Shown: one piece after another, positions 1,817 to 46,316 of the stretch
Numbering within the stretch: position 1 is the first letter of the stretch
Layout: each line of letters opens with the position of its first letter
Assembly (NCBI GenBank): GCA_029858565.1
Contig: JAOUEV010000001.1
Coordinates: 64,001-128,000 of the forward strand
Direction: 5' to 3'
DNA length: 64,000 bases
Source: Nitrospirota bacterium
GTDB taxonomy: Bacteria > Nitrospirota > UBA9217
The notes under the pieces: generated by a model
Seen by the model: only the letters and a program-made list of their open reading frames with translations
Told to the model about the DNA's origin: nothing
Databases searched by the model: none
Position numbers and translations under genes: made by a program

Positions 1817-2288
1817 AGCGCTCCAAGAGATGGGGCTGGAGGAGCGGGCACCTGAGATCGCCGAAGTAATGGGTCTGATGATACGGGCCGAGCGCGATCT
1901 GGCAACGGCCCGGTTGCTCCAGGACAAGGACGAGGAATGGTCCTACGCCGCGGCGTATCAAGCCATGGCCCGGTCCGGGAGAGCGCTCATCATGTCCGAG
2001 GGATACCGGCCCAAGGGGCCCCGGAGCAGGGATACCCATAAGACAGTAGTGACCGCTTCGGGAGTGATCCTGGGCGATAAGTTCAAGAGCCTGATCAATA
2101 AGTTCGACCGGATGCGCAGGAAGTACCAGAACTTCATGGTCGAGAGCGTAAGCATGGTATCCCGTTATGAAGCAGGGCAGGCCATCAAGGACGCGGAAGA
2201 GCTCTTCGGGATCGTAAGTTCACGGCTGCGGGAAAAGTACTCGCAGATGTCATTGCTGAACGATGTACCTCAGCTCGTATCCAGATAA
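1806..2288 (+). CDS. HEPN-domain protein, catalytic motif degenerate
   Basis: AERDLATARLL..WSYAAAYQAM..ALIMSEGYRP..H..FDRMRRK. Overlaps the MNT stop codon. Confidence 0.75.
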   Translation: MTYEALQEMGLEERAPEIAEVMGLMIRAERDLATARLLQDKDEEWSYAAAYQAMARSGRALIMSEGYRPKGPRSRDTHKTVVTASGVILGDKFKSLINKFDRMRRKYQNFMVESVSMVSRYEAGQAIKDAEELFGIVSSRLREKYSQMSLLNDVPQLVSR

Positions 2289-2333
2289 AGGCCGCTTGAA
2301 TCGAATGCGGTGACCGAAAGGGGGTGGACAACA

Positions 2334-2393
2334 ATGCCGGCGAAGAAGAAAGCTGCCAAGAAGAAGGCGAAGAAAAAGGCGAAGAAAAAGTAG
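2334..2393 (+). CDS. 19-aa Lys/Ala-rich peptide MPAKKKAAKKKAKKKAKKK
   Basis: ATG at 2334 to TAG at 2393, purine-rich RBS (GAAAGGGGGTGG). Paralogous to the next peptide. Confidence 0.6.
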   Translation: MPAKKKAAKKKAKKKAKKK

Positions 2394-2528
2394 TCTTTGA
2401 ATACATTGCCCCGAGATGGGGAAACGCCGGGGGATCTCCCCCGGCGTCATTTAATCAATAATTCGTCCGCAGTCGAGGACGTTTTCCAGGGCTTCGCCCC
2501 TAACCTAAGCAAGGAAGGAGATCGAAAC

Positions 2529-32873: not shown

Positions 32874-33482
32874 ATGTCCATCCCTGAGAACGAACAAGCG
32901 GAGCGCGAGGTCAAGATCCGCAGCATACTGCAGGAGGAACTGCAGGACGGCGAGGACCTTGCGAACGAGGCCCGGAGCATGGTCGGCTATCTTCTGCGGG
33001 AGAAGAAAGGATATGCTGCCGAGGACATCCGGAAGGGGCTGGCCTTTGAGGTGCAGCTCGGCGCTGAGACGGCGTGGTCGTCCGCTGACTTCCTTGTGTC
33101 GCTGAACGGCCGGATGGCCATGATCATCAAGTGCGCAGCGGGATCGCTCGACTCGCGGGAGCGCCAGGCTGTGGCCGCGGCGCGGGTCATTGCGTCTCCG
33201 CCGCTGCCGGTCGCGGTCGTTGCGGACCCGGTGCATGCAGAGGTGCTGGACGTGGCGAGCGGCAAGGTAGTGGGGGAAGGGTTCGGTGCGATCCCAACCA
33301 AAGAACAATTGACCGCGCTTGTCGCCAGCAAGGCTATGACGCCGCTCGATCCGAAACGGCTTGAGAAGGAGAAGCGCATCCTCCTGGCTTTTGACGCCAT
33401 CAAGTGCTGCGTGCCCCAGGGCGGGGACGGCAAGGGCGTCAATCTGCCGCGGGACGGCGGCGACCGTTGCTCCCCGAAGTAA
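32874..33482 (+). CDS. stand-alone HsdR N-terminal-like (PD-(D/E)xK fold) protein
   Basis: YLL.EKGY..EDI, ADFLV..MIIKC..GSL..RERQAVAAAR. Confidence 0.65.
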   Translation: MSIPENEQAEREVKIRSILQEELQDGEDLANEARSMVGYLLREKKGYAAEDIRKGLAFEVQLGAETAWSSADFLVSLNGRMAMIIKCAAGSLDSRERQAVAAARVIASPPLPVAVVADPVHAEVLDVASGKVVGEGFGAIPTKEQLTALVASKAMTPLDPKRLEKEKRILLAFDAIKCCVPQGGDGKGVNLPRDGGDRCSPK

Positions 33483-33556
33483 ATTCCCCTGAAAGCTGAA
33501 GGGTCCCGGAGTTCCGGCGTTTTTCCCGTCGTTAATCCGGACTTCCATTGCCCACT

Positions 33557-36500
33557 ATGCCGCGGCGAATATCCATAGCAAAACTCTCGATTCCCTCGAC
33601 CAAGGGCAGCGTGGCGCGCACGCGGCTGTTCAAATCGCTCGACGAGGGCTCCCGCCCGGTCACCTGGATATCGGGACCCGCGGGATCGGGGAAAACGACG
33701 CTCATCGCGAGCTATTGCGCCGTCCGCAGGCTCCCGACCCTGTGGTACCGCGCCGACGCGGGCGACGGGGACCCTGCGACGTTCTTCTATTATCTCGGCC
33801 TCGCGGCACGGAAGGCGGCGCCGCGCAGGCGCAAGCCCCTGCCGCTGTTCACGCCGGAGTATTTTCTGGGAGCGGCGGTGTTTGCGCAGCGATACTTCGA
33901 GGAGCTCTTCGGCCGCCTTCCCTCCCGCGCCGCGATCGTGATCGACGATTACCACACCGTCGCTCCCGATTCTCCTTTGCATGCGATGACGGCGGCGGGA
34001 TTCGGCGTGCTGCCGGAGGGCATCCGGGTGTTCGTCACGAGCCGGAGCGGCCCGCCGGAGATGCTTGCGGGGCTGCGCGCGCAGGGGCGCATAGACATGC
34101 TCGGCTGGGAGGACTTGAAATTTACCCGGGAAGAGACCCGGGCGCTGGTGAGGAATGCGGGCCATGCGCGGCCGGCCCCGGACCTGGTCGCCGGGCTCCG
34201 GGCGACCACCGACGGGTGGAGCGCGGGCCTGGCGCTGCTCCTGGAACGGATGAAGAAGAGGCCCCTGGCCGGTCTCGCGGCTTCCCACCACTCCCGGGAG
34301 GAGATATTCGACTATTTCGCATCCCAGATCCTGGCTACGCTCGACGAAGAACGCAGGGCGTTCCTCCTGACGACGGCGCTTTTGCCGGAAATGACGGCGG
34401 CCGCGGCGGAAGATCTGAGCGGCGCCCCGCGCGCCTCGCGGATACTCTCGGACTTCGCGCGGGACCAGTTCTTTACGACAAGGCACGCGCGGAACGACGA
34501 CGTGTACCTCTACCATCCGCTCTTCCGGGAGTTTCTGACCGTCCGGGCGGAACGGGAGTTTTTGCCGGACCGGCTGCAGGCCCTCCGGAACCGGGCGGCC
34601 CGCATCCTGCAGCGCGAGGGAAGGTCCGAGGACGCCGCGGCGCTCATGGCTTCGGCAGGGGACTGGGACGGCCTCGCCGGGATCGTGCGCGAACAGGCGC
34701 CGGATCTCGTGCGCCAGGGACGGCACAAGACCGTCGAACACTGGCTGCTCCGCATGCCCGCGGAGGTCGTCGGCCGGTCCGGCTGGCTGTCGTACTGGCG
34801 CGCGGTCAGCGCCATGCCCTCCGATCTCACGGCGAGCCTGAACCTGTTCGAGCGCGCCTTCCGGCTGTTCGAAGCGGAAGGCGACCGGCCGGCGGCCCTG
34901 CTTGCCTGGTCGGGCGCGGTGGAAGCGATTTTTCTGGAGCGGGGGGATTTCACCAGGCTCGATCCATGGCTTGCATGGATCGACGAAATTCTCGGTGATG
35001 AGCCGGAGTTCCCCTCCGCCGAGGCGGAGGTCCGGGTCGTCACGAGCGTCGTCATCGCGCTGACCTTCCGGCGGCCGGACCATCCCCGCGTCTGCGCGTG
35101 GGCGGACCGTGCCTTCACCCTGGCGCAGCGAAACATCGACACCGGCGCCCGGATGTCCCTTGCGAATGTCCTCGTCTTTTTCGCCGTTCTATTCGGCGAT
35201 TTCACGAAGGTGTCCTTCCTCCTCGGCATGATCCGGCCGCTTGTCAGGACGGCCGATATCCATCCGCTCACCGCGATTCTCTGGCTCTCCATCGATGCCT
35301 GCGCCCGTTACTGGGTTGACGTGTCCAGCAAGGAGTCGCTCCGGGCCGTGGATGCGGGCATGGCGACTGCGCGCTCCAGCGGAGTGCGGGTTCTCGACTT
35401 CGTTCTCGCGGCCCAGGGAGCGCACGCAGCCATCGCGGCGGGGGACGTCGAAACAGCGCAGCGGTTCCTCGATGAAATGGCGCCGGTCATGGCCACTTCG
35501 CGTTTGACCGATCAGGCGAATTTTTACTATCTGCTGGCCTGGCTGGACCTCTACCGGGGAGATTCTCGTGCGGCGGCGCGGCACGCGGAGAGGGGAATCC
35601 AATTGGCCGCGGAAGCGGGAGCGGCCATTCCCGTCATTGCCACGCGAACCGGCCTGTCCCATGCGCTCATGAGCCTGGGAGACAATGATGCAGCTGAGAA
35701 ACAGATTTCCCTGGCGCGGTGCACGGCCGCCGGCATCCCGAGCATGCAGATGGAACTGATTCTGCTCTTTGCTGAAGCGCGGCTTGCCTTTCTTCGCGGA
35801 GCGGAGAAGGCCGGACGGTCCGTTCTCCGGAAAGCCCTGGTGCTGAGCCGCGACAACCGTTACTGGAATATGCCCTACTGGACGCCCGGCATCATGACGC
35901 CGCTTTGCATCAAAGCGCTCGACGGGGGTATCGAGAGAGAGTATGTCCGTGAGCTGATCAGGAAGCGAAATCTCTTTCCCGAAGAGTCGTTGCTCCTGAC
36001 GGAGAATTGGCCCTGGCCCGTCGAAATCCGCACCCTGGGCAGGTTTGAGATCGTTGTCGACGGGAAGCCGCACCGGTCGCCCGGGAAAGTGCAGCAACGG
36101 CCGCTGCAGCTCCTGAAAGCGCTGATCGCATTCGGCGCGCGCGAAGTGAGCCAGCCCAGTCTGAACGACGCGCTCTGGCCCGACGCGGACGGCGATTTGG
36201 CGAACCAGGCCTTTAAGACGACCCTGCACCGTCTGCGGCAGCTTCTGGGGAACGAGAAGGCCGTCGTCGTGAGCGACGGATTGGTGACCCTTGATCAGCG
36301 TCATTGCCGCGTTGATGTCCTGGTCTTCGAGCAACTGGCCGGCGAGGCCGCCGCTGCTTCGTCAGCGGGAGCAACGGACCAGGCCCGGGTCTTGCTCGAA
36401 AAGGCGGCGGCACTGTACACGGGCACCTTCCTTCCTGCGGAGGAGGGGAGCGTCTGGGCTGTTTCGCTTCGCGAGCGGCTGAAGGCGGGGTATCTGAAAA

Positions 36501-36754
36501 CCATTGTCCGGCTCGGCGCGCTGTATGCCTCGTCCTCGAACTGGGACAAGGCCGCGGATTGTTACCAGAAAGCACTGGATACGGACGATCTTGCCGAGGA
36601 GTTTTACCTCGGCCTGATGGAGTGTCATATCAGGCGGGGCCGGCCCGCCGAGGCTGCCCGCGTCTATGCCCGCTGCCGGAACAGGCTCATGGCTGCGCTG
36701 GGAGTCGGTCCGTCGCAGACCATCGAAGAACTTCACGCACGCCTGAAACGCTGA
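33557..36754 (+). CDS. large transcriptional activator: MalT-like STAND NTPase + TPR-like region + SARP-type wHTH/BTAD
   Basis: R.RL..GPAGSGKTT..IDDYH..TSR..L.FT.EE..GW..GL..YHPLFREFL; C-terminal IRTLGRF..DALWPD..TTLHRLRQLL..LYTG.FL..E.FY..LM. Confidence 0.88.
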   Translation: MPRRISIAKLSIPSTKGSVARTRLFKSLDEGSRPVTWISGPAGSGKTTLIASYCAVRRLPTLWYRADAGDGDPATFFYYLGLAARKAAPRRRKPLPLFTPEYFLGAAVFAQRYFEELFGRLPSRAAIVIDDYHTVAPDSPLHAMTAAGFGVLPEGIRVFVTSRSGPPEMLAGLRAQGRIDMLGWEDLKFTREETRALVRNAGHARPAPDLVAGLRATTDGWSAGLALLLERMKKRPLAGLAASHHSREEIFDYFASQILATLDEERRAFLLTTALLPEMTAAAAEDLSGAPRASRILSDFARDQFFTTRHARNDDVYLYHPLFREFLTVRAEREFLPDRLQALRNRAARILQREGRSEDAAALMASAGDWDGLAGIVREQAPDLVRQGRHKTVEHWLLRMPAEVVGRSGWLSYWRAVSAMPSDLTASLNLFERAFRLFEAEGDRPAALLAWSGAVEAIFLERGDFTRLDPWLAWIDEILGDEPEFPSAEAEVRVVTSVVIALTFRRPDHPRVCAWADRAFTLAQRNIDTGARMSLANVLVFFAVLFGDFTKVSFLLGMIRPLVRTADIHPLTAILWLSIDACARYWVDVSSKESLRAVDAGMATARSSGVRVLDFVLAAQGAHAAIAAGDVETAQRFLDEMAPVMATSRLTDQANFYYLLAWLDLYRGDSRAAARHAERGIQLAAEAGAAIPVIATRTGLSHALMSLGDNDAAEKQISLARCTAAGIPSMQMELILLFAEARLAFLRGAEKAGRSVLRKALVLSRDNRYWNMPYWTPGIMTPLCIKALDGGIEREYVRELIRKRNLFPEESLLLTENWPWPVEIRTLGRFEIVVDGKPHRSPGKVQQRPLQLLKALIAFGAREVSQPSLNDALWPDADGDLANQAFKTTLHRLRQLLGNEKAVVVSDGLVTLDQRHCRVDVLVFEQLAGEAAAASSAGATDQARVLLEKAAALYTGTFLPAEEGSVWAVSLRERLKAGYLKTIVRLGALYASSSNWDKAADCYQKALDTDDLAEEFYLGLMECHIRRGRPAEAARVYARCRNRLMAALGVGPSQTIEELHARLKR

Positions 36755-36963
36755 TAAACCGCATTGTTTTTTCTGCATTTTCAAACCGCCCTGAGAGCAG
36801 CCATATTTCCCCGCTGTGCCACAATCGGTTCATCGCATCCGTAACCTATCCGTAACCTGTCCTCTTGTAGTATTCCCCATAGTGAATAACGACGAGTCCC
36901 CTGTCAAGCCGGCGCTGGGCGCTGGCAGGGACACGCCTAACCCGGACAAGCCGGAACTATAAA
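36736..36963 (+). repeat. ~228-bp direct repeat copy 1 (regulator 3' end + promoter + leader)
   Basis: Near-identical to 39611-39838. Confidence 0.9.
36837..36873 (+). promoter_or_regulatory. tandem 11-bp boxes ATCCGTAACCT x2 followed by -10 TAGTAT (putative SARP-activated promoter)
   Basis: ATCCGTAACCT-ATCCGTAACCT-gtcctcttg-TAGTAT; no canonical -35 box. Confidence 0.6.
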
Positions 36964-36982
36964 ACCAAAGGAGGTAATTATT

Positions 36983-38086
36983 ATGAAAAAGAGACATTTC
37001 GGGTTTTTTGCGGCATTGGTCTTGTGTTTATCATTGATAGCGGCCGCCTGCGGCGGGGGCGGCGGAGGGGGCATCCCGTCGGCGGCTACGCTTACCTCCA
37101 TCGCCGTAACTCCTGCCACCCCGAGCATTGCTCTGGGGACAACGCAGCAGTTCGCTGCCACGGGAACGTTTTCGGACGGAAGCACACAAAACCTGACCAC
37201 ACAGGTTGGCTGGAGCTCTTCGGACACGGGAAAGGCGACCATCAACAGCGCCGGCCTTGCCACGTCAGTTGCCGTCGGGACAACGACTGTCACGGCGACT
37301 TCAGGCAACATCGTGGGAACCGCCACTTTGACGGTAACCAACGCGACGCTCGCATCCATCGCCGTAACGCCGGCAACCGCGAGCATCGCTACGGGCGCGA
37401 CCCAGCAGTTCACTGCCAGGGGGACCTACTCGGACGGCAGCGCGAAGGATATCACGGCGTCGGTGACGTGGGCCTCATCGGACGTCACGCGGGCAACCGT
37501 GAGCGCGGCGGGATTGGCGACTGCGGCTTCAAATGCCGCCGGCTCGACCACTATCACGGCGACCTCGGGAAGCGTCTCGGGGAGCGCCGTGCTCAAGATC
37601 ATCGTCAATCTCCCCAAGACCGGCCAGGTCACATCATACGGCACGGGGTCGATCGACGATGGCGCATTGCAAAGAGGCGTTGCCTGGCCGACTCCGAGGT
37701 TCACCGCCGGAACGGGCGCAGAGGTTGACTGCGTGACCGACAACCTCACCGGGCTCATGTGGGTAAAGGCGCCGGATTCCACCATTACAAGGACATGGCA
37801 GGAGGCGCTGGACTATGCCAATGGTTTGGACCTTTGCGGCCACACCGACTGGCGGCTGCCGAACAAAAAGGAACTCAGGAGCCTTGCCAACTATGGGGAG
37901 GCCGATGTAGCTACATGGCTGAACAACCAGGGATTCAGCAATGTGCAGGCAAGCTTCTACTGGTCGTCTACGACGTACGCCGGTCTTACGACGTTGGCAG
38001 GGTTCGTCAGCATGTTCAACGGCCTCATGGGCTACGACACTAAGGGCGGTAGCTACTACGCGTGGCCTGTGCGCTCCGGACAGTAG
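36983..38086 (+). CDS. lipoprotein: 2x Big_2 Ig domains + DUF1566/Lcl C-type-lectin-fold domain
   Basis: AAACGGGGGG lipobox; SIAVTPA..TQQF.A.GT.SDGS repeats; LPKTGQ..VTDNLTGLMW..DWRLPN.KEL..YWSST..WPVR. Confidence 0.88.
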   Translation: MKKRHFGFFAALVLCLSLIAAACGGGGGGGIPSAATLTSIAVTPATPSIALGTTQQFAATGTFSDGSTQNLTTQVGWSSSDTGKATINSAGLATSVAVGTTTVTATSGNIVGTATLTVTNATLASIAVTPATASIATGATQQFTARGTYSDGSAKDITASVTWASSDVTRATVSAAGLATAASNAAGSTTITATSGSVSGSAVLKIIVNLPKTGQVTSYGTGSIDDGALQRGVAWPTPRFTAGTGAEVDCVTDNLTGLMWVKAPDSTITRTWQEALDYANGLDLCGHTDWRLPNKKELRSLANYGEADVATWLNNQGFSNVQASFYWSSTTYAGLTTLAGFVSMFNGLMGYDTKGGSYYAWPVRSGQ

Positions 38087-38125
38087 GTTATTCGGCCATT
38101 TGGTCATTTGAGGTTTCGGCGAATC

Positions 38126-38295
38126 ATGGCGCAATATGAGCATTTGCCCATATATAAAAAAGGCGATGGATTTGGCCATATACATCGAAAACATCGTCAG
38201 GGGTTTTTCGAGATACCACAAGTACATCCTGGGCACGGACCTGCGGAACCTGTCCCGCACGGTTGTGCGGCTGATCATCAGGGCGAATTCCGAAA
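38126..38295 (+). pseudogene. Avd-like four-helix-bundle gene, frameshifted and truncated
   Basis: MAQYEHLPIYKK, +1 A in the A run at 38156-38161, then AMDLAIYIENIVRGFSRYHKYILGTDLRNLSR..IIRANS, ending at the next gene's RBS. Confidence 0.75.
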
Positions 38296-38307
38296 GGAGG
38301 AATCAAT

Positions 38308-38913
38308 ATGTTGAAGAAAATTATGATGCTTGCGGTTGTAATGGTGTTTGCGGCTGTTGCGGCGTATGCCGCGCCCGCGGATATTCCCAAGACCGGGCAG
38401 ACAAAGTGCTATAACACTGCAGGAGCGGAGATTGCCTGCGCTAACACCGGGCAGGACGGCGACAAGCTGGCAGGCGTTGCCTGGCCGACTCCGAGGTTCA
38501 CGGTCGGAACAGGCGCAGAAGTTGACTGCGTAACCGACAACCTTACCGGGCTCATGTGGGTAAAGGCGCCGGATCCCACCGGAAGGACATGGCAGGAGGC
38601 GCTGGACTATGCCGATGGTTTGGACCTTTGCGGCCACACCGACTGGCGGCTGCCGAACGTGAATGAGCTCGAAAGCCTTCTCCATGCGGAATACACGAAT
38701 ACAACATTGTGCGGCGGCGCAGGGTGTAGTGACAACGCCGCGTGGCTGAACACCCAGGGCTTCAGCAATGTGCAGGCTCACTACTACTGGTCGTCCAGTA
38801 CGTATGCCGCTGATACGACGTTAGCATGGCTCGTCCATATGGTCTTCGGCGGCGTGTACAGCGACGATAAGACCTCTATATTCAACGTGTGGCCTGTGCG
38901 CGCCGGACACTAG
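38308..38913 (+). CDS. secreted DUF1566/Lcl protein
   Basis: Signal peptide (AAYA), IPKTGQ..TDNLTGLMW..WRLPNVNEL..YWSSS..WPVR. Core nearly identical to 37676-37864. Confidence 0.88.
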   Translation: MLKKIMMLAVVMVFAAVAAYAAPADIPKTGQTKCYNTAGAEIACANTGQDGDKLAGVAWPTPRFTVGTGAEVDCVTDNLTGLMWVKAPDPTGRTWQEALDYADGLDLCGHTDWRLPNVNELESLLHAEYTNTTLCGGAGCSDNAAWLNTQGFSNVQAHYYWSSSTYAADTTLAWLVHMVFGGVYSDDKTSIFNVWPVRAGH

Positions 38914-39116
38914 GCCGCTGCCGGTCTTGCCAATGCGGCAAAATTCAAGCATTGGATACCGGCGATGCGGTCTACGACAAATGCAGCAATTGGGCGGACG
39001 GAATCAGCGCAACAGCAGGTATATCAGGTTTGCCGTATACGACGAATATTTATTGGACATACGGCGCCTATCTGACCTGCGATATGGAGGCGTTGCTCTA
39101 TTACCTGGAAGACTGA
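38914..39116 (+). pseudogene. 3' remnant of a DUF1554-like paralog of 41956-44109
   Basis: 38914-38948 matches ~43717-43752, then C..W.D..G..G.PY..N..WT..TCD..LY.LED* with the same downstream UTR. Confidence 0.75.
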
Positions 39117-39151
39117 GTTTTCGCAGGAATCAGGAAGACACGTAGTGCTTT

Positions 39152-39181
39152 GCGGCCGCCCTCCGGGGCGGCCGTTTCTTT
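39152..39181 (+). terminator. intrinsic terminator (intron target site)
   Basis: GCGGCCGCCC-TCCG-GGGCGGCCGT-TTCTTT. Confidence 0.85.
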
Positions 39182-39184
39182 GTG

Positions 39185-39535
39185 GTGCGCCCGGCAGGGC
39201 GCACACCCTTGGAGGTGAAAGTCCTCTACGGACCCTGATGACGGGAACCGTTAGCTGAACCGCAAGGGCTGCCGGGCTCACCGGGGTCTGAAGGAAGCGG
39301 TAAGCAAATCTCCGGCCCGAAGAACATGAAGCGCATACAAGGCGCCGCGTCTGGGCGAGACGGCCATAAGATTCAAAGCCCGATAGTCATTCGGAAGGCG
39401 CGGAAGTAGATGCGACGGGTATATGGGGTGAAAGTGGGTGCGCAATACCCGGGGAGGTCTGCGCGTCATGCGGTAGGAGCGTCGTGAGGGAGTCCGGGGA
39501 CGGGTCAGCCCGGCAACCAAGACCCAGGCGCAGCA
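39185..39535 (+). mobile_element. group II (class IIC-like) intron 5' fragment (domains I-II), no RT ORF
   Basis: GTGCGCCCGGCAGGGCGCA..GGTGAAAGTCC..GGAAGCGGTAAGCAAA..GAAAGTGGGTGCGCAATACCCGGGGAGGTCTG, immediately after a terminator. Confidence 0.82.
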
Positions 39536-39610
39536 GCGGCTGTCATCTGCAGCGAGTCCCCTTAAGGCAGGGGAAATACGAACCAGACAGCATCTCAGGA
39601 CGAATCCTCC

Positions 39611-39838
39611 AGCACGCCTGAAACGCTGATAAATCGCATTGTTTTTTCTGCATTTTCAAACCGCCCTGGGAACAGCCATATTTCCCCGCTGTGCCGCAAT
39701 CGGTTCATCGCATCCGTAACCTATCCGTAACCTGTCCTGTTGTAGTATCCCCCAAGTGAAAAACGACGGGCCCCCCTTTCAAGCTGGCGCTGGGCGCCGG
39801 CAGGGACACGCATAACCCGGACAAGCCGGAACCATAAA
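39611..39838 (+). repeat. ~228-bp direct repeat copy 2 (promoter with tandem ATCCGTAACCT boxes + leader)
   Basis: Near-identical to 36736-36963. Confidence 0.9.
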
Positions 39839-39934
39839 TCCGATACTATTCACCACGGATGCACGCGGATGAGCACGGACAAAACTTAAGATAAACGCCT
39901 TTATCAATAAGCCATAAATAAGGAGGGAAGGGAA

Positions 39935-41053
39935 ATGAAGATGCTATTGAGGCTTTCTTTCACAGTATTGCTGGCAGTCATGGCTCTATCCGGGTGCGGC
40001 GGAGGTGGTGGGGAAGGGGGCGGTGCTCCCGCGTCATCGGCCAAGGCCATTACCGCCTTTTCTCTCGACGGGGTTGCGGGGACAATAAATGAAACGGCAA
40101 AGACGATCTCCGTCACCATGCCGTACGGCACGAATGTCACGGCCCTGGTTGCGACGTTCACGAGCACCGGGGCGAGCGTAAAGGTAGGCTCGGCCGTCCA
40201 GACAAGCGGGACAACGGCGAATGACTTCACAAACCCCGTGTCATACACGGTAACGGCGGCGGACGGCACAATAGCGGCATATACCGTGACGGTGACCGTG
40301 GCCCTGAGCTCCGCCAAGGCCATTACCGCCTTTTCTCTCGACGGGGTTGCGGGGACAATAAATGAAACGGCAAAGACGATTTCCGTCGCAATGCCGTACG
40401 GCACGAATGTCACGGCTGTCACGGCCCTGGTTGCGACGTTCGCGACCACCGGGGAGAGCGTAACAGTAGGCTCGGCCGTCCAGACAAGCGGGACAACGGC
40501 GAATGACTTCACAAGCCCCGTGTCATACACGGTAACGGCGGCGGACGGTACAACGGCGACATATACCGTGACGGTGACAGTAGGCAAACTCCCGGATACC
40601 GGCCAAACGGGAGACTACACCGCTACCATCGGAGAAGACAGCGATTATACCATTAACTCTCCCTCTTACACTGATAACGGAGACGGCACAATCACCGACA
40701 ATGTCACGAAACTTACGTGGCAGAAGTGTTCCCCGGGACAAAGCGGAGCGGATTGCGCCGCCGGCACCGCGACGGAATATAGCTGGGACAATGCAGGTAC
40801 AGCCTGCGCCGGCCTTGGGACAGGCTGGCGTCTACCCACGCGCATGGAACTGCTCACAATAGCCGATTACGGGGTATCTGCCCCGGCAATAAACGGCGTT
40901 TCTTTCCCAGGCACGATCACATGGTACTACTGGACGTCCACTACTTACGCGGGCGGTACGACGAATGCGTGGGTCGTGGCCTTCGGCGGCGGCACCGCGG
41001 ACTGGTACGATAAGACTAGCGTGAACTATGTCCGTTGCGTGCGAGGACAGTGA
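39935..41053 (+). CDS. lipoprotein: 2x beta-sandwich repeats (DUF5018-like) + DUF1566/Lcl domain
   Basis: LSGCGGGGG; AKAITAFSL..YTVTAADG...YTVTVT twice; LPDTGQ..TDNGDGTITDNVTKLTWQ..GWRLPT..YWTST..YVRCVRGQ. Confidence 0.88.
   Translation: MKMLLRLSFTVLLAVMALSGCGGGGGEGGGAPASSAKAITAFSLDGVAGTINETAKTISVTMPYGTNVTALVATFTSTGASVKVGSAVQTSGTTANDFTNPVSYTVTAADGTIAAYTVTVTVALSSAKAITAFSLDGVAGTINETAKTISVAMPYGTNVTAVTALVATFATTGESVTVGSAVQTSGTTANDFTSPVSYTVTAADGTTATYTVTVTVGKLPDTGQTGDYTATIGEDSDYTINSPSYTDNGDGTITDNVTKLTWQKCSPGQSGADCAAGTATEYSWDNAGTACAGLGTGWRLPTRMELLTIADYGVSAPAINGVSFPGTITWYYWTSTTYAGGTTNAWVVAFGGGTADWYDKTSVNYVRCVRGQ
40040..40579 (+). repeat. intragenic tandem duplication, 273-bp period; second copy has a 9-bp (VTA) micro-duplication
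   Basis: 40040-40297 vs 40313-40579 nearly identical. Confidence 0.9.
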
Positions 41054-41087
41054 GTCGGTCATTTAAATTCAAAGGAGGGGGTTGTCT

Positions 41088-41558
41088 ATGAAGAGAGTCC
41101 TGATTTCTATTTTGGCGGCAGGGTTTCTTGGGTTGTATTGCGGCTATGCAAACGCGGGGAGCTACACGGACAACGGCAATGCAACCGTGACCGACAATAC
41201 CACCGGTCTCATGTGGCAACAATGTTCCGCGGGTCTGAGCGGCGCTAATTGCACTGCAGGCATACAAGCTATATACTCATGGGATGATGCAATAACCTAT
41301 TGCGAAGGCCTGTCGCTCGGCGGCTTTACAGACTGGCGTCTGCCGAACGTCAGGGAGTTGAGCTCTCTTGTTGACGTTTCGCGGGTCAACCAGTCTATTG
41401 ATCCCCTGTTTCCTGCTACGCAATCAGCCTTGTACTGGTCGTCCACTATTAACGCGGGCAATACGTTATACGCGTGGATCGTGGACTTCAACAGCGGCCG
41501 CGTGTACTACAACGCGGTGTTTAATACGAACTATATCCGTTGCGTGCGGGGACAGTGA
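41088..41558 (+). CDS. secreted DUF1566/Lcl protein
   Basis: AAGGAGG RBS, signal peptide, YTDNGNATVTDNTTGLMWQ..DWRLPNVRELSSL..YWSST..YIRCVRGQ. Confidence 0.88.
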   Translation: MKRVLISILAAGFLGLYCGYANAGSYTDNGNATVTDNTTGLMWQQCSAGLSGANCTAGIQAIYSWDDAITYCEGLSLGGFTDWRLPNVRELSSLVDVSRVNQSIDPLFPATQSALYWSSTINAGNTLYAWIVDFNSGRVYYNAVFNTNYIRCVRGQ

Positions 41559-41635
41559 GCCGGCGACTGGGTCATTGGGGTATCTGGGTATGAAGGGGGA
41601 GGGGGATGCCGCTATGCCAACATCCCCCTCGCATC

Positions 41636-41700
41636 GTACTATCCCCCAAGTGAAAAACGACGGGCCCCCTTTCAAGCCGGCGCTGGGCGCCGGCAGGGCG
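41636..41700 (+). repeat. third (partial) copy of the -10/leader element
   Basis: GTACTATCCCCCAAGTGAAAAACGACGGGCCCCCTTTCAAGCCGGCGCTGGGCGCCGGCAGGG. Confidence 0.85.
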
Positions 41701-41735
41701 CGCCTGCGGCCGTGTATCCGGCCGGGAGGCAGGAC

Positions 41736-41942
41736 GTGGAGTGCTACATCGTTCGAATATACCGCCGATACGAGGACCCGGAGAGGAACATCGTCGGGGT
41801 CGTTGAAGAGGTGGGACAGGACGCAAAACAGGCATTTACCAATGACCGGGAACTGCGGGAGATCCTGGCCCCGGAACGAATACGAGCGGGCAGCCACGGC
41901 GGCAAAAGCGCTCTGAGCAGGTCCGGTGAACAGTCTCGTTAA
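41736..41942 (+). CDS. small hypothetical protein (YIVRIYR..IVGVVEEVG..AF)
   Basis: GTG start after GGAGG; compact beta-rich pattern. Confidence 0.6.
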   Translation: MECYIVRIYRRYEDPERNIVGVVEEVGQDAKQAFTNDRELREILAPERIRAGSHGGKSALSRSGEQSR

Positions 41943-41955
41943 AAAGGAGGAATTG

Positions 41956-44109
41956 ATGAGAAACAGCACATTTGAGTACGGAATGGTTTTTCTGGCGCTA
42001 TGTTGTCTTGTTTTTGCAGGCTGCGGAGGCGGAGGCGCGACCACGATTGCGGATACCACTGCCCCGACGATCAGTTCCACCAGCCCGGCGAGCAACGCGA
42101 GCGGCGTTGCAGTGAACGGAGCGATCAGCGCGACCTTCAGCGAGGCCATGGATGCGTCAACAATAACATCGTCATCGTTCACGGTAAAAGACGCGAACAA
42201 TAACGCGGTTTCCGGGGCCGTGAATTATGCGGGAACATCCGCGACCTTCACGCCCGCGGCGGACTTTGCCTACGCTACGGCCTATACTGCAACGATCTCG
42301 ACGGGAGCAAAGGACGTTGCCGGAAATGCCCTCACAGCTGCCTATTCCTGGAGTTTCACCACGGGCACGGCTCCGGATACCACTGCCCCGACAGTCAGTT
42401 CCACCAGCCCGGAGAGCAACGCAACCGGTGTTGCGGTGAACGGCGCGGTCAGCGCGACCTTCAGCGAGGCCATGGACCCCGCAACGTTCACCGTATCGTC
42501 GTTCCTGCTGAAGGACGGGAGCAATAATGCCGTCAGCGGCGCGGTGAATTACGCGGGTACGACCGCGACCTTCACGCCGTCGGTCAATCTGGCTTATTCC
42601 GCGGGATACACGGCAACGGTCACGACTACTGTTAAAGACCTTGCAGGGAACGCCCCGGCTGCTGCCTATTCCTGGAGTTTCACCACCGGCGCGGCGCCGG
42701 ATACCACACCGCCGACGGTGACCTCCACCAGCCCGGCGGGCAGTGCAACCGGTGTTGCGGTGGACGGCGCGGTCAGCGTGACCTTCAGCGAAGCCATGAA
42801 AGCGGAGACGATCACCACCGGGTCCTTCCTGCTGAAAGACGCGGGCAATAACGCGGTCAGCGGCACGGTTATCTATTCAGCCGCAACGGCAACGTTCACT
42901 CCATCGGCAAATCTGGCCTATGCAACGCTGTACACGGCAACGGTCACAACGGCGGCAGTGGACCTGGCGGGAAACGGACTTGCGACAAATGCGACGTTTA
43001 CCTTTACGACCGCTGCAGCTCCGAACGTCGCTTTCGTGACCTCTGTTACCGGGAACGGTAATTTGAGTTCCTGGGCGGACGCCGGCGGAAAAACCGGCCT
43101 GGCTGCGGCAGACGCGATCTGCCAGGCGCGCGCAACAGCCGGAGGGCTGACGGGAACGTTCAAGGCCTGGATGTCCGATACCTCCGACGACGCCTATTGC
43201 CGCATGCATGACCTGACCGGCCACATTTATGATAAATGCGGACAAGGGGTGCTCCCGGCTTCGGCAGGGCCCTGGGTCAGAACCGACGGCACTCCCTTTG
43301 CTCCAACGATCGATAAAATGACGGCGCAGCGCCAGATCTACAGTCCGCTGGCGTATGACGAGTTCGGGATTAAGGCCCCGGCGGGATCGGCATTCCACAC
43401 CGGGACTTCGGAAACAGGCGAATATGTGTATGGAGGAATGTGCACAAACTGGACGGTTTCAAATTTTGATGCTCACAATGTAGGTTTTATCTACTCTACC
43501 ACCTACGGATGGACTGCCGGCTCGGGAAACTGTAACTCGTCGGCGGCGCTGGCGTGTTTTCAGATCGGGAACGGCGGACCGCTCCCGGCCTTTACCGCCA
43601 CGGGGAGAAAAGCCTTCATTACGTCGACCAAGGGGACCGGCAACCTCGGCAGTTGGGCCGACTCAGGCGGCAACACAGGTGTTGCTGCCGGCGATGCGAT
43701 CTGCCAGGCGCGGGCTTCCGCCGCCGGTCTTGCCAATGCGGCAAAATTCAAGGCGTGGTTGTCCGATGGAACCGCGGCGATGGATAGCCGGTTGACGGGC
43801 AATGGCCCCTGGCTCCGTCTCGACGGCATGGTTATGGCCAAGGACAAGACAGAACTCATGAGCGGCAGTTTGCCGACCAGCATCAACGTAACCGAGACAG
43901 GGGTGTACGTCGGCGACGCAAATTCCCTTGCCTGGACGGGCACGAAGTCAGACGGCACGGCGCACGCAGACACTTGTAACGGCTGGACCGATGCAACAAA
44001 CGGGATGAGCGGATTGGCGGGGATGCCTTATGCCGCGAACCTCTGGTGGACGTTCTTCACGCTGCCGACCTGCGACACGCAGGCGTCGCTCTATTGCCTG
44101 GAAGACTGA
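41956..44109 (+). CDS. lipoprotein: 3x SbsA/Big_5 Ig repeats + 2x DUF1554/endostatin-like (C-type-lectin-fold) domains
   Basis: FAGCGGGG; DTTAPT..TSP..TFSEAM repeats with 324-bp period; AF.TS..G.GNL..ADAICQARA..FKAW.SD..GPW.R.DG..C..WT..L.C twice. Confidence 0.82.
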   Translation: MRNSTFEYGMVFLALCCLVFAGCGGGGATTIADTTAPTISSTSPASNASGVAVNGAISATFSEAMDASTITSSSFTVKDANNNAVSGAVNYAGTSATFTPAADFAYATAYTATISTGAKDVAGNALTAAYSWSFTTGTAPDTTAPTVSSTSPESNATGVAVNGAVSATFSEAMDPATFTVSSFLLKDGSNNAVSGAVNYAGTTATFTPSVNLAYSAGYTATVTTTVKDLAGNAPAAAYSWSFTTGAAPDTTPPTVTSTSPAGSATGVAVDGAVSVTFSEAMKAETITTGSFLLKDAGNNAVSGTVIYSAATATFTPSANLAYATLYTATVTTAAVDLAGNGLATNATFTFTTAAAPNVAFVTSVTGNGNLSSWADAGGKTGLAAADAICQARATAGGLTGTFKAWMSDTSDDAYCRMHDLTGHIYDKCGQGVLPASAGPWVRTDGTPFAPTIDKMTAQRQIYSPLAYDEFGIKAPAGSAFHTGTSETGEYVYGGMCTNWTVSNFDAHNVGFIYSTTYGWTAGSGNCNSSAALACFQIGNGGPLPAFTATGRKAFITSTKGTGNLGSWADSGGNTGVAAGDAICQARASAAGLANAAKFKAWLSDGTAAMDSRLTGNGPWLRLDGMVMAKDKTELMSGSLPTSINVTETGVYVGDANSLAWTGTKSDGTAHADTCNGWTDATNGMSGLAGMPYAANLWWTFFTLPTCDTQASLYCLED

Positions 44110-44144
44110 GTTTTCGCAAAAATCAAGAAGACACGTACTGCTTT

Positions 44145-44174
44145 GCGGCCGCCCTTCGGGGCGGCCGTTTCTTT
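44145..44174 (+). terminator. intrinsic terminator (intron-free twin of 39152-39181)
   Basis: GCGGCCGCCC-TTCG-GGGCGGCCGT-TTCTTT. Confidence 0.85.
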
Positions 44175-44314
44175 GGAACGTGTATCGATGCTTCCCCCGT
44201 GGCAGGAATATGCTGCGGCGAACAGAGCCTTGACCCGCCTTTGCCCATGATGCTAGAATGCACACTGTTCACCGGCATGGATATCCCGATCATGGCAGCG
44301 CATTCTTTCCGTTC

Positions 44315-45148
44315 ATGACCCAACTTACCGAAGAGACTTTTGAAAAGACCCTCCGTTCCTTTATCCGCTCAGAGCGTATAGACCTGGGCGGCGTCACGTT
44401 CATCGATCCCTACGGCATGGTCGGCCTTTTGGAGATCGGCGAGCTGTGCATGCTCGAGGACGTGAAGAAGACGATCGTCCTTCCCCGATCCCCCGAGGTC
44501 TGCAGGTATCTTGAGCGCATGGACTTCTTTTCCCACGCGAAACGATACTTCACCCTTGAACCCATGCAGCCTCCATCTGATGGCAGCAGCGGCGCCTCAG
44601 ATGTACTGCTCGAGATCACACCCATCGAACGGGCCAACGATATCCACTATATTGTCGGCAAGGTGCGGGAGCGGGCCCAGGCCATACTTACTGCACATCT
44701 CCGGTACGATGAACGGGCCATCAACGGGTTCATCGTTGCCCTTTCCGAGGTCTGCCAGAACATCATCGAGCATAGCGAGAACAAGGGCTTTGTGGGAATC
44801 CAGAAGTACCGTTTTCCGAGCCTGGGAAAGAACATCGTCAAGATCGCGGTCATGGATGCGGGCATAGGATTTCGCAGGTCGCTCTCGAACCGCTTCAAGC
44901 TCAAGAGCGATCTTGAGGCTATAGAAAAGGGCCTGCTCCAAGGCGCGTCGCGCCACGAGGACGAGGGCCGTGGCCACGGCCTTGCCGCAGTGCGCAGGTT
45001 CGTGACCCAGTGGCAGGGCAGGCTCTCGATCCGCTCTGGCTCGGCCCGTCTCTCACTTATCCCGAAGTGGTCGCGGGGCAGGGAAAAGGAACTGAACCTC
45101 ACGCAGTTCCCCGGCAGCCAGATCAACATCATCCTGCCGGAGATGTGA
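44315..45148 (+). CDS. STAS-like + HATPase_c (anti-sigma/RsbW-like kinase) protein
   Basis: IDL..VTFIDP.G; ALSEVCQNIIEHS (N box), DAGIG (G1), GRGHGL (G2), FPGSQI. Confidence 0.8.
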   Translation: MTQLTEETFEKTLRSFIRSERIDLGGVTFIDPYGMVGLLEIGELCMLEDVKKTIVLPRSPEVCRYLERMDFFSHAKRYFTLEPMQPPSDGSSGASDVLLEITPIERANDIHYIVGKVRERAQAILTAHLRYDERAINGFIVALSEVCQNIIEHSENKGFVGIQKYRFPSLGKNIVKIAVMDAGIGFRRSLSNRFKLKSDLEAIEKGLLQGASRHEDEGRGHGLAAVRRFVTQWQGRLSIRSGSARLSLIPKWSRGREKELNLTQFPGSQINIILPEM

Positions 45149-45273
45149 TCAGGCCCTATCCTGATCTCGAACACCGTTTTATTCCCGCGCTGATAACGCC
45201 TGTTTTATTGACAGCTCTCGATCAAGTTGGTACTATGTTGCAGTTTGTTGAAGCCGTTCTGAAGGAGAATGAA

Positions 45274-45672
45274 ATGAAGAAACAGATTGTGATGTTGTTC
45301 CTGGCAGCAGGTCTCATGATCGCCCAGAGCGCATTGGCTGCTGAAACAGCGCCGCTCAGCACTCCGGAGCTGAAGCAGGCCATCGGCGCGGGCAAGAAGA
45401 ACACGGTTGTTTTCTTTATCAACCCCAACGGCGGTCCCTGCAAGGCGCAGAAGGAGATCCTGGTTCAGCTTCAGAAGGACCGGAAGGGGAACTTCAATAT
45501 TGCCTACGTGGATGCAATGAACCAGGCGAACCAGAAGGCGTTCTATGACTACGGCGTCAGGAGCCTGCCCACGGTCGTGGTCGTTGACGGGAAGGGCAAG
45601 ATCGCAAAGTATTTCCCTCCGGGCATCCAGAGCTACGATGTTCTGGCAAAGACGCTGGACAGCATTAAGTAA
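45274..45672 (+). CDS. secreted thioredoxin-fold protein with a single Cys (GGPC)
   Basis: Signal peptide ALA-A; VVFF.NP.GGPC; YGVRSLPTVVVVDGKG. Confidence 0.75.
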   Translation: MKKQIVMLFLAAGLMIAQSALAAETAPLSTPELKQAIGAGKKNTVVFFINPNGGPCKAQKEILVQLQKDRKGNFNIAYVDAMNQANQKAFYDYGVRSLPTVVVVDGKGKIAKYFPPGIQSYDVLAKTLDSIK

Positions 45673-46316
45673 TGGACCTAGGCATAACAAATATCGGATT
45701 GGCAATAGGCGCGGGGCTCGCAAGCGTGATGTCTCCCTGCGTGCTGCCGGTCGTTCCGGTGATCATGGCGGGGGCGGAGCGGGAAGACCGCCTTCGGCCC
45801 CTGCTGATCGTTCTCGGGCTGTCGCTCATGTTCATGATCATGGGCGCGATCTCGTCGCTCTTTGGCGCGCTTCTGGTCGGAAAGACCCGGTACATCGAAC
45901 TGACCGGCGCGGTGATCATCATGATCATGGGCTTTGTGGTCCTGTTCGATCTCAGCCTGTTCAAGCGGCTCTATCAATTGTCGAACATTCGCGTGAAGGG
46001 CGAGGGAAGGTTCTCGGGGCTTCTGCTCGGCATGGCGCTCGGCCTTGTCTGGGTCCCCTGCATCGGTCCGTTCCTGTCCAGCATCCTCACCATGGTCGGC
46101 ACGAGCGGAGAGATGGCAAAGGGTGTTTTCCTGCTCGGATTCTACTCTCTTGGCCTTGCGATCCCCATGCTGATCGTGGCTTATTCCTCACATCTTCTGC
46201 AGCGCAAGCTCAGTTCCCTGGCACGGCATGAAGCGGTATTTCGCTATGTGACCGGCAGCATCCTTATTGCTTTTGGTCTGTACTCCATCCTTGTCGGCAA
46301 CATCGCCTTCTCGTAA
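45672..46316 (+). CDS. CcdA/DsbD-family transmembrane electron carrier
   Basis: SPCVLPVVP, WVPCIGP, YSLGLAIP. Confidence 0.9.
   Translation: MDLGITNIGLAIGAGLASVMSPCVLPVVPVIMAGAEREDRLRPLLIVLGLSLMFMIMGAISSLFGALLVGKTRYIELTGAVIIMIMGFVVLFDLSLFKRLYQLSNIRVKGEGRFSGLLLGMALGLVWVPCIGPFLSSILTMVGTSGEMAKGVFLLGFYSLGLAIPMLIVAYSSHLLQRKLSSLARHEAVFRYVTGSILIAFGLYSILVGNIAFS

What the first reader, a model, noticed from the sequence alone, without database searches (positions are those of the whole stretch)
33557..44174. Regulator-controlled array of hypervariable surface lectins with DGR signatures but no RT or template in the locus
Seen: a MalT/SARP-type activator is followed by five secreted or lipoprotein C-type-lectin-fold genes on three different Ig-like stalks, in three transcription units that share a leader element. 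The locus also holds a broken Avd-like gene and VR-like C-termini. No RT and no AAC-rich non-coding template repeat are visible in the 64 kb. Known: DUF1566/CLec folds are typical DGR targets, and Avd is the DGR accessory protein. Inference: this is a chromosomal, signal-inducible display cassette of diversified binders, either served in trans by a DGR elsewhere or frozen after RT loss. Coupling to a STAND-BTAD activator is not an arrangement I know to be described.
Basis: partly seen in the sequence, partly recalled or inferred. Interest (0 to 1): 0.85.

Follow-up and report, generated by a model that had tools for sequence, protein, structure and literature searches.

The report
Beheaded DGR under a SARP-type switch
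A signal-sensing activator sits in front of an array of surface sugar-binding-type proteins, and the first pair of these is the remains of a mutagenic retroelement (DGR) that has lost its template and reverse transcriptase, so the binders are now frozen.

Summary
Window 33548-44175 holds a MalT-like NTPase fused to a C-terminal SARP DNA-binding module. It is followed by four Lcl_C/DUF1566 genes and one gene with two endostatin-like (DUF1554) domains.

Two promoters carry an identical 22-bp box of two 11-bp direct repeats, 9 bp before a -10-like hexamer. This is the layout described for SARP activators.

Unit 1 (g367 - avd fragment - g201) is colinear with bona fide DGRs of related genomes (target - avd - TR - RT - target). 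It lacks the 3' half of avd, the TR and the RT. The 3.9-Mb assembly holds only two RTs, both of group II intron type, and no adenine-biased TR/VR pair. "Frozen after RT loss" is therefore supported, and "served in trans" is not. No DGR ancestry is shown for g372, g158 or g727.

New here: a conserved small ORF of no known family (window 41736-41942) follows SARP genes and the repeat box in several phyla. The arrangement recalls AfsR-afsS.

Inactivated DGRs are known. I found no description of a DGR relic under a STAND-SARP module, nor of the SARP-box-small-ORF cassette.

The parts
33548..36754 (+). Regulator, 1068 aa: MalT-like STAND NTPase (Walker A GPAGSGKT), helical/TPR middle part, C-terminal SARP module (winged helix + BTAD)
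   Evidence: Pfam BTAD E 1.3e-22. NCBIfam MalT 11-419 E 1.6e-52 and AfsR SARP 837-1066 E 2.8e-15. The Walker motif is read from the translation.
36837..36873 (+). Promoter 1: box ATCCGTAACCT x2 (36837-36858), 9 nt, then the -10-like hexamer TAGTAT (36868-36873)
   Evidence: The box occurs only twice in the genome, even when 5 mismatches are allowed.
36983..38086 (+). g367: lipoprotein, Big_2 x2 + Lcl_C. The VR-like 3' end (about 37940-38086) marks it as a former DGR target 1
   Evidence: Pfam; colinear with DGR target/VR of G031 and G034.
38126..38297 (+). avd remnant: the first 57 of about 120 codons, with a 1-nt insertion (frameshift) after codon 12, cut off at 38297
   Evidence: PF22296 E 0.004. 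BLASTP 43/51 identical to the G034 Avd (E 1e-30) and 37/51 to the G031 Avd (E 3e-27). Alignment.
38308..38913 (+). g201: secreted Lcl_C protein with a VR-like 3' end (about 38767-38913). A former DGR target 2
   Evidence: Pfam; window 38293-38909 is colinear with the target that follows the RT in G034.
38915..39182 (+). 3' fragment of a DUF1554 gene with its terminator hairpin (39152-39175). It is a copy of the end of g727
   Evidence: The mismatches are spread over all four bases, so it is not a TR.
39166..39607 (+). 5' piece of a group II intron, without RT ORF or D5/D6
   Evidence: Rfam RF02001, 110 bits, at 39271-39443. The flanks match the ends of other contigs and the region upstream of the C62 RT.
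39612..39934 (+). Duplicate of the last 18 nt of the regulator gene plus leader 2, with the same box (39712-39733) and TAGTAT (39743-39748)
39935..41053 (+). g372: lipoprotein, DUF5018 x2 + Lcl_C
   Evidence: Pfam.
41082..41558 (+). g158: secreted Lcl_C protein
   Evidence: Pfam E 6.3e-36.
41636..41705 (+). Third copy of the leader core (TACTAT at 41637, GC hairpin), without the direct-repeat box
41736..41942 (+). Small ORF, 68 aa (GTG start; GGGAGG ends 6 nt before the start codon). Conserved partner of SARP genes, with no known family
41956..44109 (+). g727: lipoprotein, Big_5 x3 + two endostatin-like (DUF1554) domains. The ORF is open from 41926; the likely start is the ATG at 41956, after AAGGAGG
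   Evidence: Pfam. AF2 model pLDDT 93. Foldseek match to endostatin, E 4.8e-10, TM 0.74-0.77.
44145..44168 (+). Terminator-like hairpin followed by a T run

Best explanation
The locus is a regulon cassette. A STAND-type sensor ATPase with a C-terminal SARP DNA-binding/activation module switches on the promoters next to it. It does so by binding a 22-bp box of two 11-bp direct repeats that replaces the -35 element. The promoters drive genes for outer-surface lipoproteins and secreted partners that carry lectin-like binding domains.

The first operon is a decapitated diversity-generating retroelement. It was once target - avd - TR - RT - target. An internal deletion removed the 3' half of avd, the template repeat and the reverse transcriptase. 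The two variable C-termini are therefore frozen and now change only by ordinary mutation.

The stalked protein g367 and the short secreted g201 probably pair through their Lcl_C domains.

The array grew by segmental duplication and carries debris: a DUF1554 gene end and a group II intron 5' piece.

Shown: domain content, repeats, synteny, and absence of RT/TR in the assembly.
Inferred: binding of the regulator to the box, inducibility, pairing of the two lectins, and their ligands.
For: Regulator chimera.

Box and promoter:
- The box is identical at 36837-36858 and 39712-39733, 9 nt before TAGTAT, and is unique in the genome. Only 10 perfect 11-nt tandem duplications occur in 3,918,454 bases.
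- The same layout stands after regulator homologs in 5 of 11 intergenic regions scanned in relatives.
- It also stands in 35 of 55 loci from several phyla, against 24 of 1054 control windows.
- It matches the SARP promoter rule quoted in PMC10936776 (introduction read).

DGR relic:
- avd remnant: 43/51 aa identical to the Avd of a true DGR.
- Window 37675-38297 is colinear with target 1 + avd of G031. Window 38293-38909 is colinear with the target after the RT of G034. The 2,276 nt lying between these in G034 (avd 3' half, TR, RT) are missing.
- True DGRs in G031 and G034 show 21/23, 21/22 and 20/26 mismatches at TR adenines with the same script. Their RTs carry IGNLTSQ/YCDD.
- The own genome has 2 RVT_1 hits, both with the group II maturase domain. 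It has no A-biased repeat pair.
- Differences between g367 and g201 are enriched at sites that are adenines in the relatives' TRs: 22 of 47 such sites differ against 18 of 97 other sites, p about 0.001.
- dN/dS is 1.8 in the VR-like 47 codons against 0.4 upstream.

Recurrence:
- A metagenome contig (L164) 82.8% identical over 703 nt has regulator + box + small ORF upstream. It has a less advanced deletion of the same cassette.
- 6 of 80 related loci keep only the tail of the RT.

Pairing:
- Complex prediction median score 0.83, best control 0.01. On the tool's calibration that mark was reached by 51 of 78 solved complexes and 2 of 108 mismatched pairs. The runs agree in at least 89% of contacts, and partner pLDDT is at least 88.
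- Relatives encode two Lcl_C domains in one frame.
Against: - No experiment or RNA data: the promoter, the TSS and the inducibility are inferred.
- The third leader copy has no box, so g727 and the small ORF may be read through from unit 2 or driven otherwise.
- The assembly has 144 contigs. A DGR on an unassembled or unbinned piece cannot be excluded.
- g367 and g201 also differ at 19% of the non-adenine sites. Either the loss is old or they never shared one TR.
- Enrichment at 'adenine sites' is also what selection on binding residues alone would give.
- The complex score may reflect likeness to the solved Lcl C-terminal trimer (PMC11162425, passages read).
- Only 2 of 24 other genomes with a regulator match have Lcl_C genes within 10 kb downstream of it.
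Confidence: 0.72

Rival explanations
1. The array is still diversified, by a DGR (RT + TR + Avd) that lies elsewhere in the genome or on a mobile element and was not assembled or binned.
For: Remote targets are known for chromosomal DGRs (PMC5758913, passages read). The assembly is in 144 contigs. In G031 a regulator-linked Lcl_C gene on contig C1 shows 22 of 29 mismatches at adenines of a TR on contig C3.
Against: - No DGR-type RT among the 2 RVT_1 hits.
- No partial Lcl_C hit of the TR kind among the 10 Lcl_C hits. Such hits do flag the TRs of G031 and G034.
- No A-biased repeat pair genome-wide.
- The cassette's own avd is frameshifted and truncated.
- Contigs of the run that holds the locus cross all VR-like stretches unbroken.
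- g367 and g201 differ at 19% of non-adenine sites.
Confidence: 0.07
2. There was never a DGR here. The genes are ordinary paralogs whose binding loops diverged under positive selection, and the Avd-like piece is a chance or unrelated helical fragment.
For: Mismatches between paralogs fall on all four bases. Selection on ligand-contacting loops would also concentrate changes at the same codons. PF05635 and tblastn with the genome's own IVS-type proteins found nothing in the window.
Against: The remnant is 84% identical over 51 aa to the Avd of a true DGR, and its first 12 residues are identical. The gene order and flanks are colinear with two true DGRs at the DNA level. L164 still keeps the tail of the RT at the same place.
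Confidence: 0.03
3. The deletion junction, or the whole mosaic (gene fragment, intron piece, duplicated leader), is an assembly artefact of a metagenome bin.
For: The region is full of repeats. Logan contigs break at several of them. One low-depth contig joins 37707 to 38632.
Against: Single contigs of the run cover 37835-38612 and 38629-39664 with no differences, which bridges the avd/g201 junction and the fragment-intron-leader junctions. The run may be the bin's own source, so this is not independent. Similar deleted cassettes occur in unrelated contigs.
Confidence: 0.05
4. The regulator does not control the lectin genes. The repeat box is bound by another factor, or the regulator acts only on the small ORF.
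For: - Across phyla the box precedes the small ORF, and the cargo behind it varies.
- In this window the small ORF copy has no box.
- Other Lcl_C pairs of the genome (C101, C89) have no regulator nearby.
Against: - Leader 2 carries the last 18 nt of the regulator gene, which shows that regulator end + box + leader moved as one unit.
- The box is found only at this locus.
- The other two regulator paralogs with a small ORF (C88, C125) each have their own box variant, GTGAGT and TGTATC.
Confidence: 0.13

Closest known systems
Chromosomal DGRs with DUF1566 / CLec2 targets ('category d' of Wu et al. 2018, PMC5758913; exemplified by the Legionella DGR and its lipoprotein target LdtA)
   Same: Short DUF1566-only targets and targets with Big_2 extensions, and a surface lipoprotein with the variable part at the C-terminus (passages read). 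The order target - avd - TR - RT - target is seen in relatives.
   Different: No RT and no TR, and avd is frameshifted and truncated. The cassette sits in an operon behind a SARP-type box promoter.
Inactivated or truncated DGRs, noted as common by Wu et al. 2018
   Same: That paper states that over half of candidate DGRs were discarded for premature stops, truncations or poor TR-VR matches (passage read). This locus is such a case.
   Different: Here the targets stay intact and are kept in a regulated array. A second lineage (L164) shows the same association at an earlier stage of decay. I saw no description of such retained targets. Supplements were not seen.
AfsR and afsS of Streptomyces (large SARP with NOD and TPR; 22-bp afs box of two 11-bp repeats; small-protein gene as direct target)
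   Same: SARP + NOD + helical sensor. A 22-bp box of two 11-bp direct repeats lies close to the -10. A small-protein gene follows the box directly in most related loci.
   Different: The domain order is reversed (NOD first, SARP last). The phyla are not Actinobacteria. The small protein was not compared with AfsS and has no family. The cargo is surface proteins, not antibiotic clusters.
MalT of E. coli (STAND activator)
   Same: The N-terminal NTPase region aligns over 400 residues.
   Different: The score is below the equivalog cut-off. The output domain is SARP rather than LuxR-type.
Legionella Lcl C-terminal domain (PF07603), a glycosaminoglycan-binding trimer (PMC11162425)
   Same: The same Pfam domain, which oligomerises through it (passages read).
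   Different: No collagen stalk. Ig-like stalks or no stalk at all. The predicted pairing is between two different gene products. The ligand is unknown.
Endostatin domain of collagens XV/XVIII
   Same: The last domain of g727 superposes with TM 0.74-0.77. A relative (G005) joins collagen repeats to DUF1554.
   Different: Bacterial lipoprotein on Big_5 stalks, with about 20% sequence identity.

Membership tests
Diversity-generating retroelement (functional) | DGR-clade reverse transcriptase | tested here: not met
   There are 2 RVT_1 hits in the genome and none on the window's contig. Both carry the group II maturase domain. The DGR RTs of G031 and G034 carry IGNLTSQ (the motif is recalled).
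Diversity-generating retroelement (functional) | TR/VR pair that differs only at TR adenines | tested here: not met
   None for the five 3' ends or genome-wide (the one candidate was rejected). The same script gives 21/23, 21/22 and 20/26 in G031 and G034.
Diversity-generating retroelement (functional) | Intact accessory gene avd | tested here: not met
   Only codons 1-57 remain, with a frameshift.
Diversity-generating retroelement (remnant) | Target genes and avd in the order and sequence of a true DGR | tested here: met
   DNA colinearity with G031 and G034 and with L164.
SARP family activator | OmpR-type winged helix followed by BTAD | tested here: met
   BTAD E 1.3e-22. Residues 837-1066 align to AfsR 40-265. 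Pfam Trans_reg_C itself was not reported.
SARP family activator | Target promoter with direct repeats 11 bp apart, the 3' repeat about 8 bp from the -10 | tested here: met
   Two of three leaders carry the box, 9 bp before TAGTAT. The rule is quoted from PMC10936776.
SARP family activator | Binding and activation shown | not testable with these tools
   No RNA run holds the locus (1 DNA run).
STAND / MalT-type NTPase | NOD with Walker motifs | tested here: met
   NF003420 over residues 11-419, E 1.6e-52. GPAGSGKT and IVIDDYH are read.
STAND / MalT-type NTPase | LuxR-type output domain, as in MalT | tested here: not met
   The C-terminus is SARP, and the score of 178.7 is below the cut-off of 537.
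Lcl_C / DUF1566 (PF07603) | Pfam model above the gathering score | tested here: met
   100.6-123.6 bits against a cut-off of 34.9 in four genes.
DUF1554 / endostatin-like | Pfam model and fold | tested here: met
   PF07588, 34.7 bits against a cut-off of 27.5. Foldseek match to endostatin, E 4.8e-10. Only the second domain was folded.
Group II intron (complete) | D1-D4 RNA, intron-encoded RT, D5/D6 | tested here: not met
   Only RF02001 is present, at 39271-39443. There is no RT ORF and no other intron model at gathering score.
AfsR-AfsS type pair | Small protein homologous to AfsS | not tested
   No AfsS sequence was fetched. The likeness is one of arrangement only.

The most novel reading that the evidence does not exclude
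SARP gene + 22-bp direct-repeat box + a 60-85-aa protein beginning M-E-S/N-Y-I-V-R-I-Y-R-R is an undescribed regulatory cassette. It is widespread in Nitrospirota, Thermodesulfobacteriota and Gamma/Betaproteobacteria and works like AfsR-AfsS. In at least two lineages it has taken a DGR lectin cassette under its control. Variable binders were therefore once both diversified and displayed on a signal, and were then fixed by loss of the RT.
Probability: 0.35. Interest if true: 0.75.

Novelty: new variant of a known kind. Interest (0 to 1): 0.62.

Why it matters
- The locus shows what happens to DGR targets after the retroelement dies. They can be kept intact and placed in a regulated display array. 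The stages of decay can be read by comparing loci: a full cassette, then only the RT tail left, then only half of avd left.
- It places SARP-type activators in Gram-negative environmental phyla, with the promoter architecture known from Streptomyces. One paper I read states that SARPs were found exclusively in actinomycetes (PMC7040171, passage read).
- It points to a conserved small protein partner that can be tested directly.

Tried and rejected
- PF05635 search of the genome, and tblastn of the eight hits against the window. Both found no Avd in the window. This was a false negative: the remnant belongs to the bAvd subfamily PF22296.
- The fragment at 38889-39116 as a TR for g727. Rejected, because the mismatches fall on all bases.
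- Candidate C51/C126 from the genome-wide scan. It is an intergenic repeat.
- The RT next to Lcl_C genes in G002:C478 and G008:C1. Both are of group II type.
- Rfam at E up to 1 on 33000-46000. It found no known RNA family in the leaders.
- Folds of the three leaders have z-scores of -1.6, -0.9 and -0.5, which gives no support for a structured RNA.
- Leader DNA against 64 family genomes. Only a 22-27-nt motif (AACCCGGACAAGCCGGAAC) matches, and it does so hundreds of times, so this does not show leader homologs.
- Small ORF: no Pfam or NCBIfam family, no PDB sequence match, no Foldseek match at E up to 0.001.
- Reads: the one run found is kept as contigs, so variation at the VR-like codons could not be measured.
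- Papers holding DGR + SARP: 0. Papers holding DGR + BTAD: 11. By their titles they are phage annotation and tool papers. I did not open them, and 'btad' may match journal DOIs.
Full report
**What is there.**
On the + strand of 33548-44175 lie, in order:
- a 1068-aa regulator;
- g367 (Big_2 x2 + Lcl_C);
- g201 (Lcl_C);
- about 1 kb of debris;
- g372 (DUF5018 x2 + Lcl_C);
- g158 (Lcl_C);
- a 68-aa ORF;
- g727 (Big_5 x3 + DUF1554);
- a terminator.

The regulator's residues 11-419 align to the MalT model (E 1.6e-52, below its equivalog cut-off). Residues 837-1066 align to the SARP part of AfsR, and Pfam finds BTAD at 922-1066. It is thus a STAND NTPase whose output domain is a C-terminal SARP module, the reverse of the AfsR order described in PMC10936776 (introduction read).

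Three of the five proteins show a lipobox-like Cys followed by a glycine run. The two short ones have plain signal peptides (read; the motif is recalled).

An AlphaFold model of the last domain of g727 (pLDDT 93) matches endostatin (Foldseek E 4.8e-10, TM 0.74-0.77).

**The shared leader.**
36737-36966 and 39612-39841 are 92.6% identical over 231 nt. A 64-72-nt core recurs at 41636-41705. None of this occurs elsewhere in the 3.9-Mb assembly.

Copy 2 begins with the last 18 nt of the regulator gene, so regulator end plus leader was duplicated as one piece.

Copies 1 and 2 hold an identical 22-bp box, ATCCGTAACCT twice, 9 nt before TAGTAT. With up to 5 mismatches the box is found only at these two places. 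Perfect 11-nt tandem duplications number 10 in the genome. Copy 3 has TACTAT but no repeat unit within 45 nt.

The layout is the one given for SARP targets: repeats 11 bp apart, with the 3' repeat 8 bp from the -10 (PMC10936776).

It is not peculiar to this window. Five of 11 intergenic regions next to regulator homologs in relatives show two 11-nt repeats followed by a TAnnnT hexamer. The paralogous modules of this genome on C88 and C125 have their own variants.

**A conserved small ORF.**
Downstream of those boxes in relatives I found a small ORF. The window's copy is 41736-41942, with a GTG start and GGGAGG ending 6 nt before it.

- A profile of five copies finds 22 matches in 9 of 41 related genomes. 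By my comparison with the regulator matches, 19 of the 22 lie within 5.1 kb downstream of one, on the same strand.
- A scan of one genome per species returned 61 loci from Nitrospirota, Thermodesulfobacteriota, Gamma- and Betaproteobacteria.
- 49 of the 61 hold a regulator-like gene, usually ending just before the ORF. In many Gammaproteobacteria it is a SARP-only protein.
- 35 of 55 loci with a clear start codon have an 11-nt-period repeat within 120 nt upstream, against 24 of 1054 control windows. The word pair GTA[AG][GC]-N6-GTA[AG][GC] occurs in 35 of 55 against 0 of 1071. The N-terminal motif was part of the search pattern, so its conservation is partly by construction.
- The protein has no Pfam or NCBIfam family. 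Among the 120 listed of its 247 homologs, the only names given are 'hypothetical protein', apart from one 'DUF2235 family' label.
- The model is three strands and a helix with a disordered tail and has no fold match.
- The genes behind the small ORF are varied and mostly secreted-looking: beta-propellers, fn3, PKD, Big_5, M48-TPR, and unknown proteins.

Leaders 1 and 2 of the window keep the promoter, the first bases of this ORF and a GC hairpin, but not its body.

**The DGR question.**
The genome has two RVT_1 hits, on other contigs. Both carry the group II maturase domain, and one has intron RNA domains beside it.

No repeat of the five 3' ends, and no repeat pair genome-wide, has adenine-biased mismatches. 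The same script recovers true DGRs in G031 and G034, with 21/23, 21/22 and 20/26 mismatches at TR adenines. Their RTs carry IGNLTSQ.

My first Avd checks were negative. A search with the bAvd model then gave a weak hit at window 38157-38303. That stretch is 43/51 identical to the Avd of the G034 DGR (E 1e-30) and 37/51 identical to that of G031. The gene starts at 38126 with the same 12 residues as in G034. It has one extra A that shifts the frame, and it stops being Avd at 38297.

At the DNA level:
- 37675-38297 is colinear with target 1 plus avd of G031;
- 38078-38296 is colinear with the start of the G034 cassette;
- 38293-38909 is colinear with the target that follows the RT in G034.

The 2,276 nt between these points in G034 (rest of avd, TR, RT) are absent. 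Unit 1 is therefore a DGR with its engine cut out.

**How frozen, and for how long.**
The 3' ends of g367 and g201 align base for base with the TRs and VRs of G031 and G034.
- Their mutual differences fall on 22 of 47 sites that are adenines in the G034 TR and on 18 of 97 other sites (p about 0.001).
- A true VR pair gives 17 of 17 differences at adenine sites.
- A TR-TR control shows no bias.
- dN/dS is 0.40/0.22 in the last 47 codons against 0.14/0.35 upstream.

This fits old adenine mutagenesis overlaid by ordinary drift. Selection on the same loops would look alike.

The only run that holds the locus is kept as contigs. They cross every VR-like stretch and the deletion junction without listed differences. 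This cannot exclude rare variants and is not independent of the bin.

**Recurrence.**
Eighty metagenome loci with related Avd genes were annotated with profiles built here.
- Many show target - avd - TR - RT - target.
- Six (L117, L118, L134, L135, L146, L164) keep only the last 75 or fewer profile positions of the RT right after avd.
- Two (L127, L192) have a truncated avd directly followed by an Lcl_C gene, as the window does.

L164 is 82.8% identical to window 37600-38293 over 703 nt. It retains 325 nt (rest of avd, RT tail) that the window lacks. It carries a regulator, a repeat box and the small ORF upstream on the same strand. It is the only one of the 80 loci with a regulator or small-ORF hit.

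Among 24 other related genomes with a regulator match, two (G031:C1, G009:C18) have Lcl_C genes within 10 kb downstream, and G005 has a collagen-DUF1554 gene there. In G031 that gene differs from the TR on another contig at 22 adenines out of 29 mismatches. It is a decayed or former remote target.

**Pairs of lectins.**
A stalked Lcl_C gene followed by a short secreted one occurs four times in this genome. Relatives often carry two Lcl_C domains in one frame.

Complex prediction for g367 215-367 with g201 23-201 gave a median score of 0.83 against a best control of 0.01. On the tool's calibration that mark was reached by 51 of 78 solved complexes and 2 of 108 mismatched pairs. The runs agree in at least 89% of contacts, and partner pLDDT is at least 88. 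The interface includes the VR-like residues. Because the Lcl C-terminal domain is a solved trimer (PMC11162425), the pass may reflect that likeness.

**Debris.**
38915-39182 is a shortened copy of the end of g727 with the same terminator. It is followed by the 5' part of a group II intron: RF02001 at 39271-39443, with no RT.

**Verdict.**

Inactivated DGRs are known to be common (PMC5758913).

I found nothing in print on two points. One is retention of DGR targets inside a STAND-SARP regulon. The other is the wider SARP-box-small-ORF cassette. Supplements were closed, and subscription journals were not searched.

Noticed in passing
window 36939-36957 and 39814-39832; own genome C74 and C85; many family genomes: A 19-27-nt motif (AACCCGGACAAGCCGGAAC, a short hairpin) matches at hundreds of places across 54 of 63 other family genomes. 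In C74 and C85 it lies right beside the ribosome-binding site of an opposite-strand gene. Its nature is unknown.
   Followed up: partly
L087 (genome contigs), 6001-6513: One homolog of the small ORF is fused to a C-terminal stretch that looks like a PilZ domain (RxxxR ... DxSxxG, recalled). This hints at a link to c-di-GMP. It was not checked with Pfam.
   Followed up: no
L036 (G005:C20) 1542-2510, minus strand: A protein that joins collagen triple-helix repeats to a DUF1554 domain, behind a regulator + small ORF. This is the same domain order as collagen XVIII with endostatin.
   Followed up: no
window 37707 to 38632: One low-depth contig (depth 3) of the run joins g367 to g201 and skips 924 nt. 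This suggests recombination between their 91-94% identical segments in part of the population.
   Followed up: no
own genome C101:10088-10949 and C89:31769-32644: Two further stalked + short Lcl_C gene pairs (fn3 and PKD stalks). They follow caspase-TPR and M48-TPR genes, with no regulator nearby.
   Followed up: partly
own genome C88:24000-38000 (L023): In a paralogous module, an IS200-like transposase gene and a HigB-like toxin gene lie between the regulator and its small ORF.
   Followed up: no
window 44258-45148: A 296-aa protein with a histidine-kinase-type ATPase domain and a weak RsbW-like match, with its own sigma-70-like promoter at 44230-44259. No link to the array is shown.
   Followed up: no
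own genome, 8 places (C123, C7, C94, C93, C47, C98, C38, C108): Eight PF05635 (23S rRNA intervening-sequence protein) matches, five above the cut-off. None is near an RT or an Lcl_C gene.
   Followed up: partly
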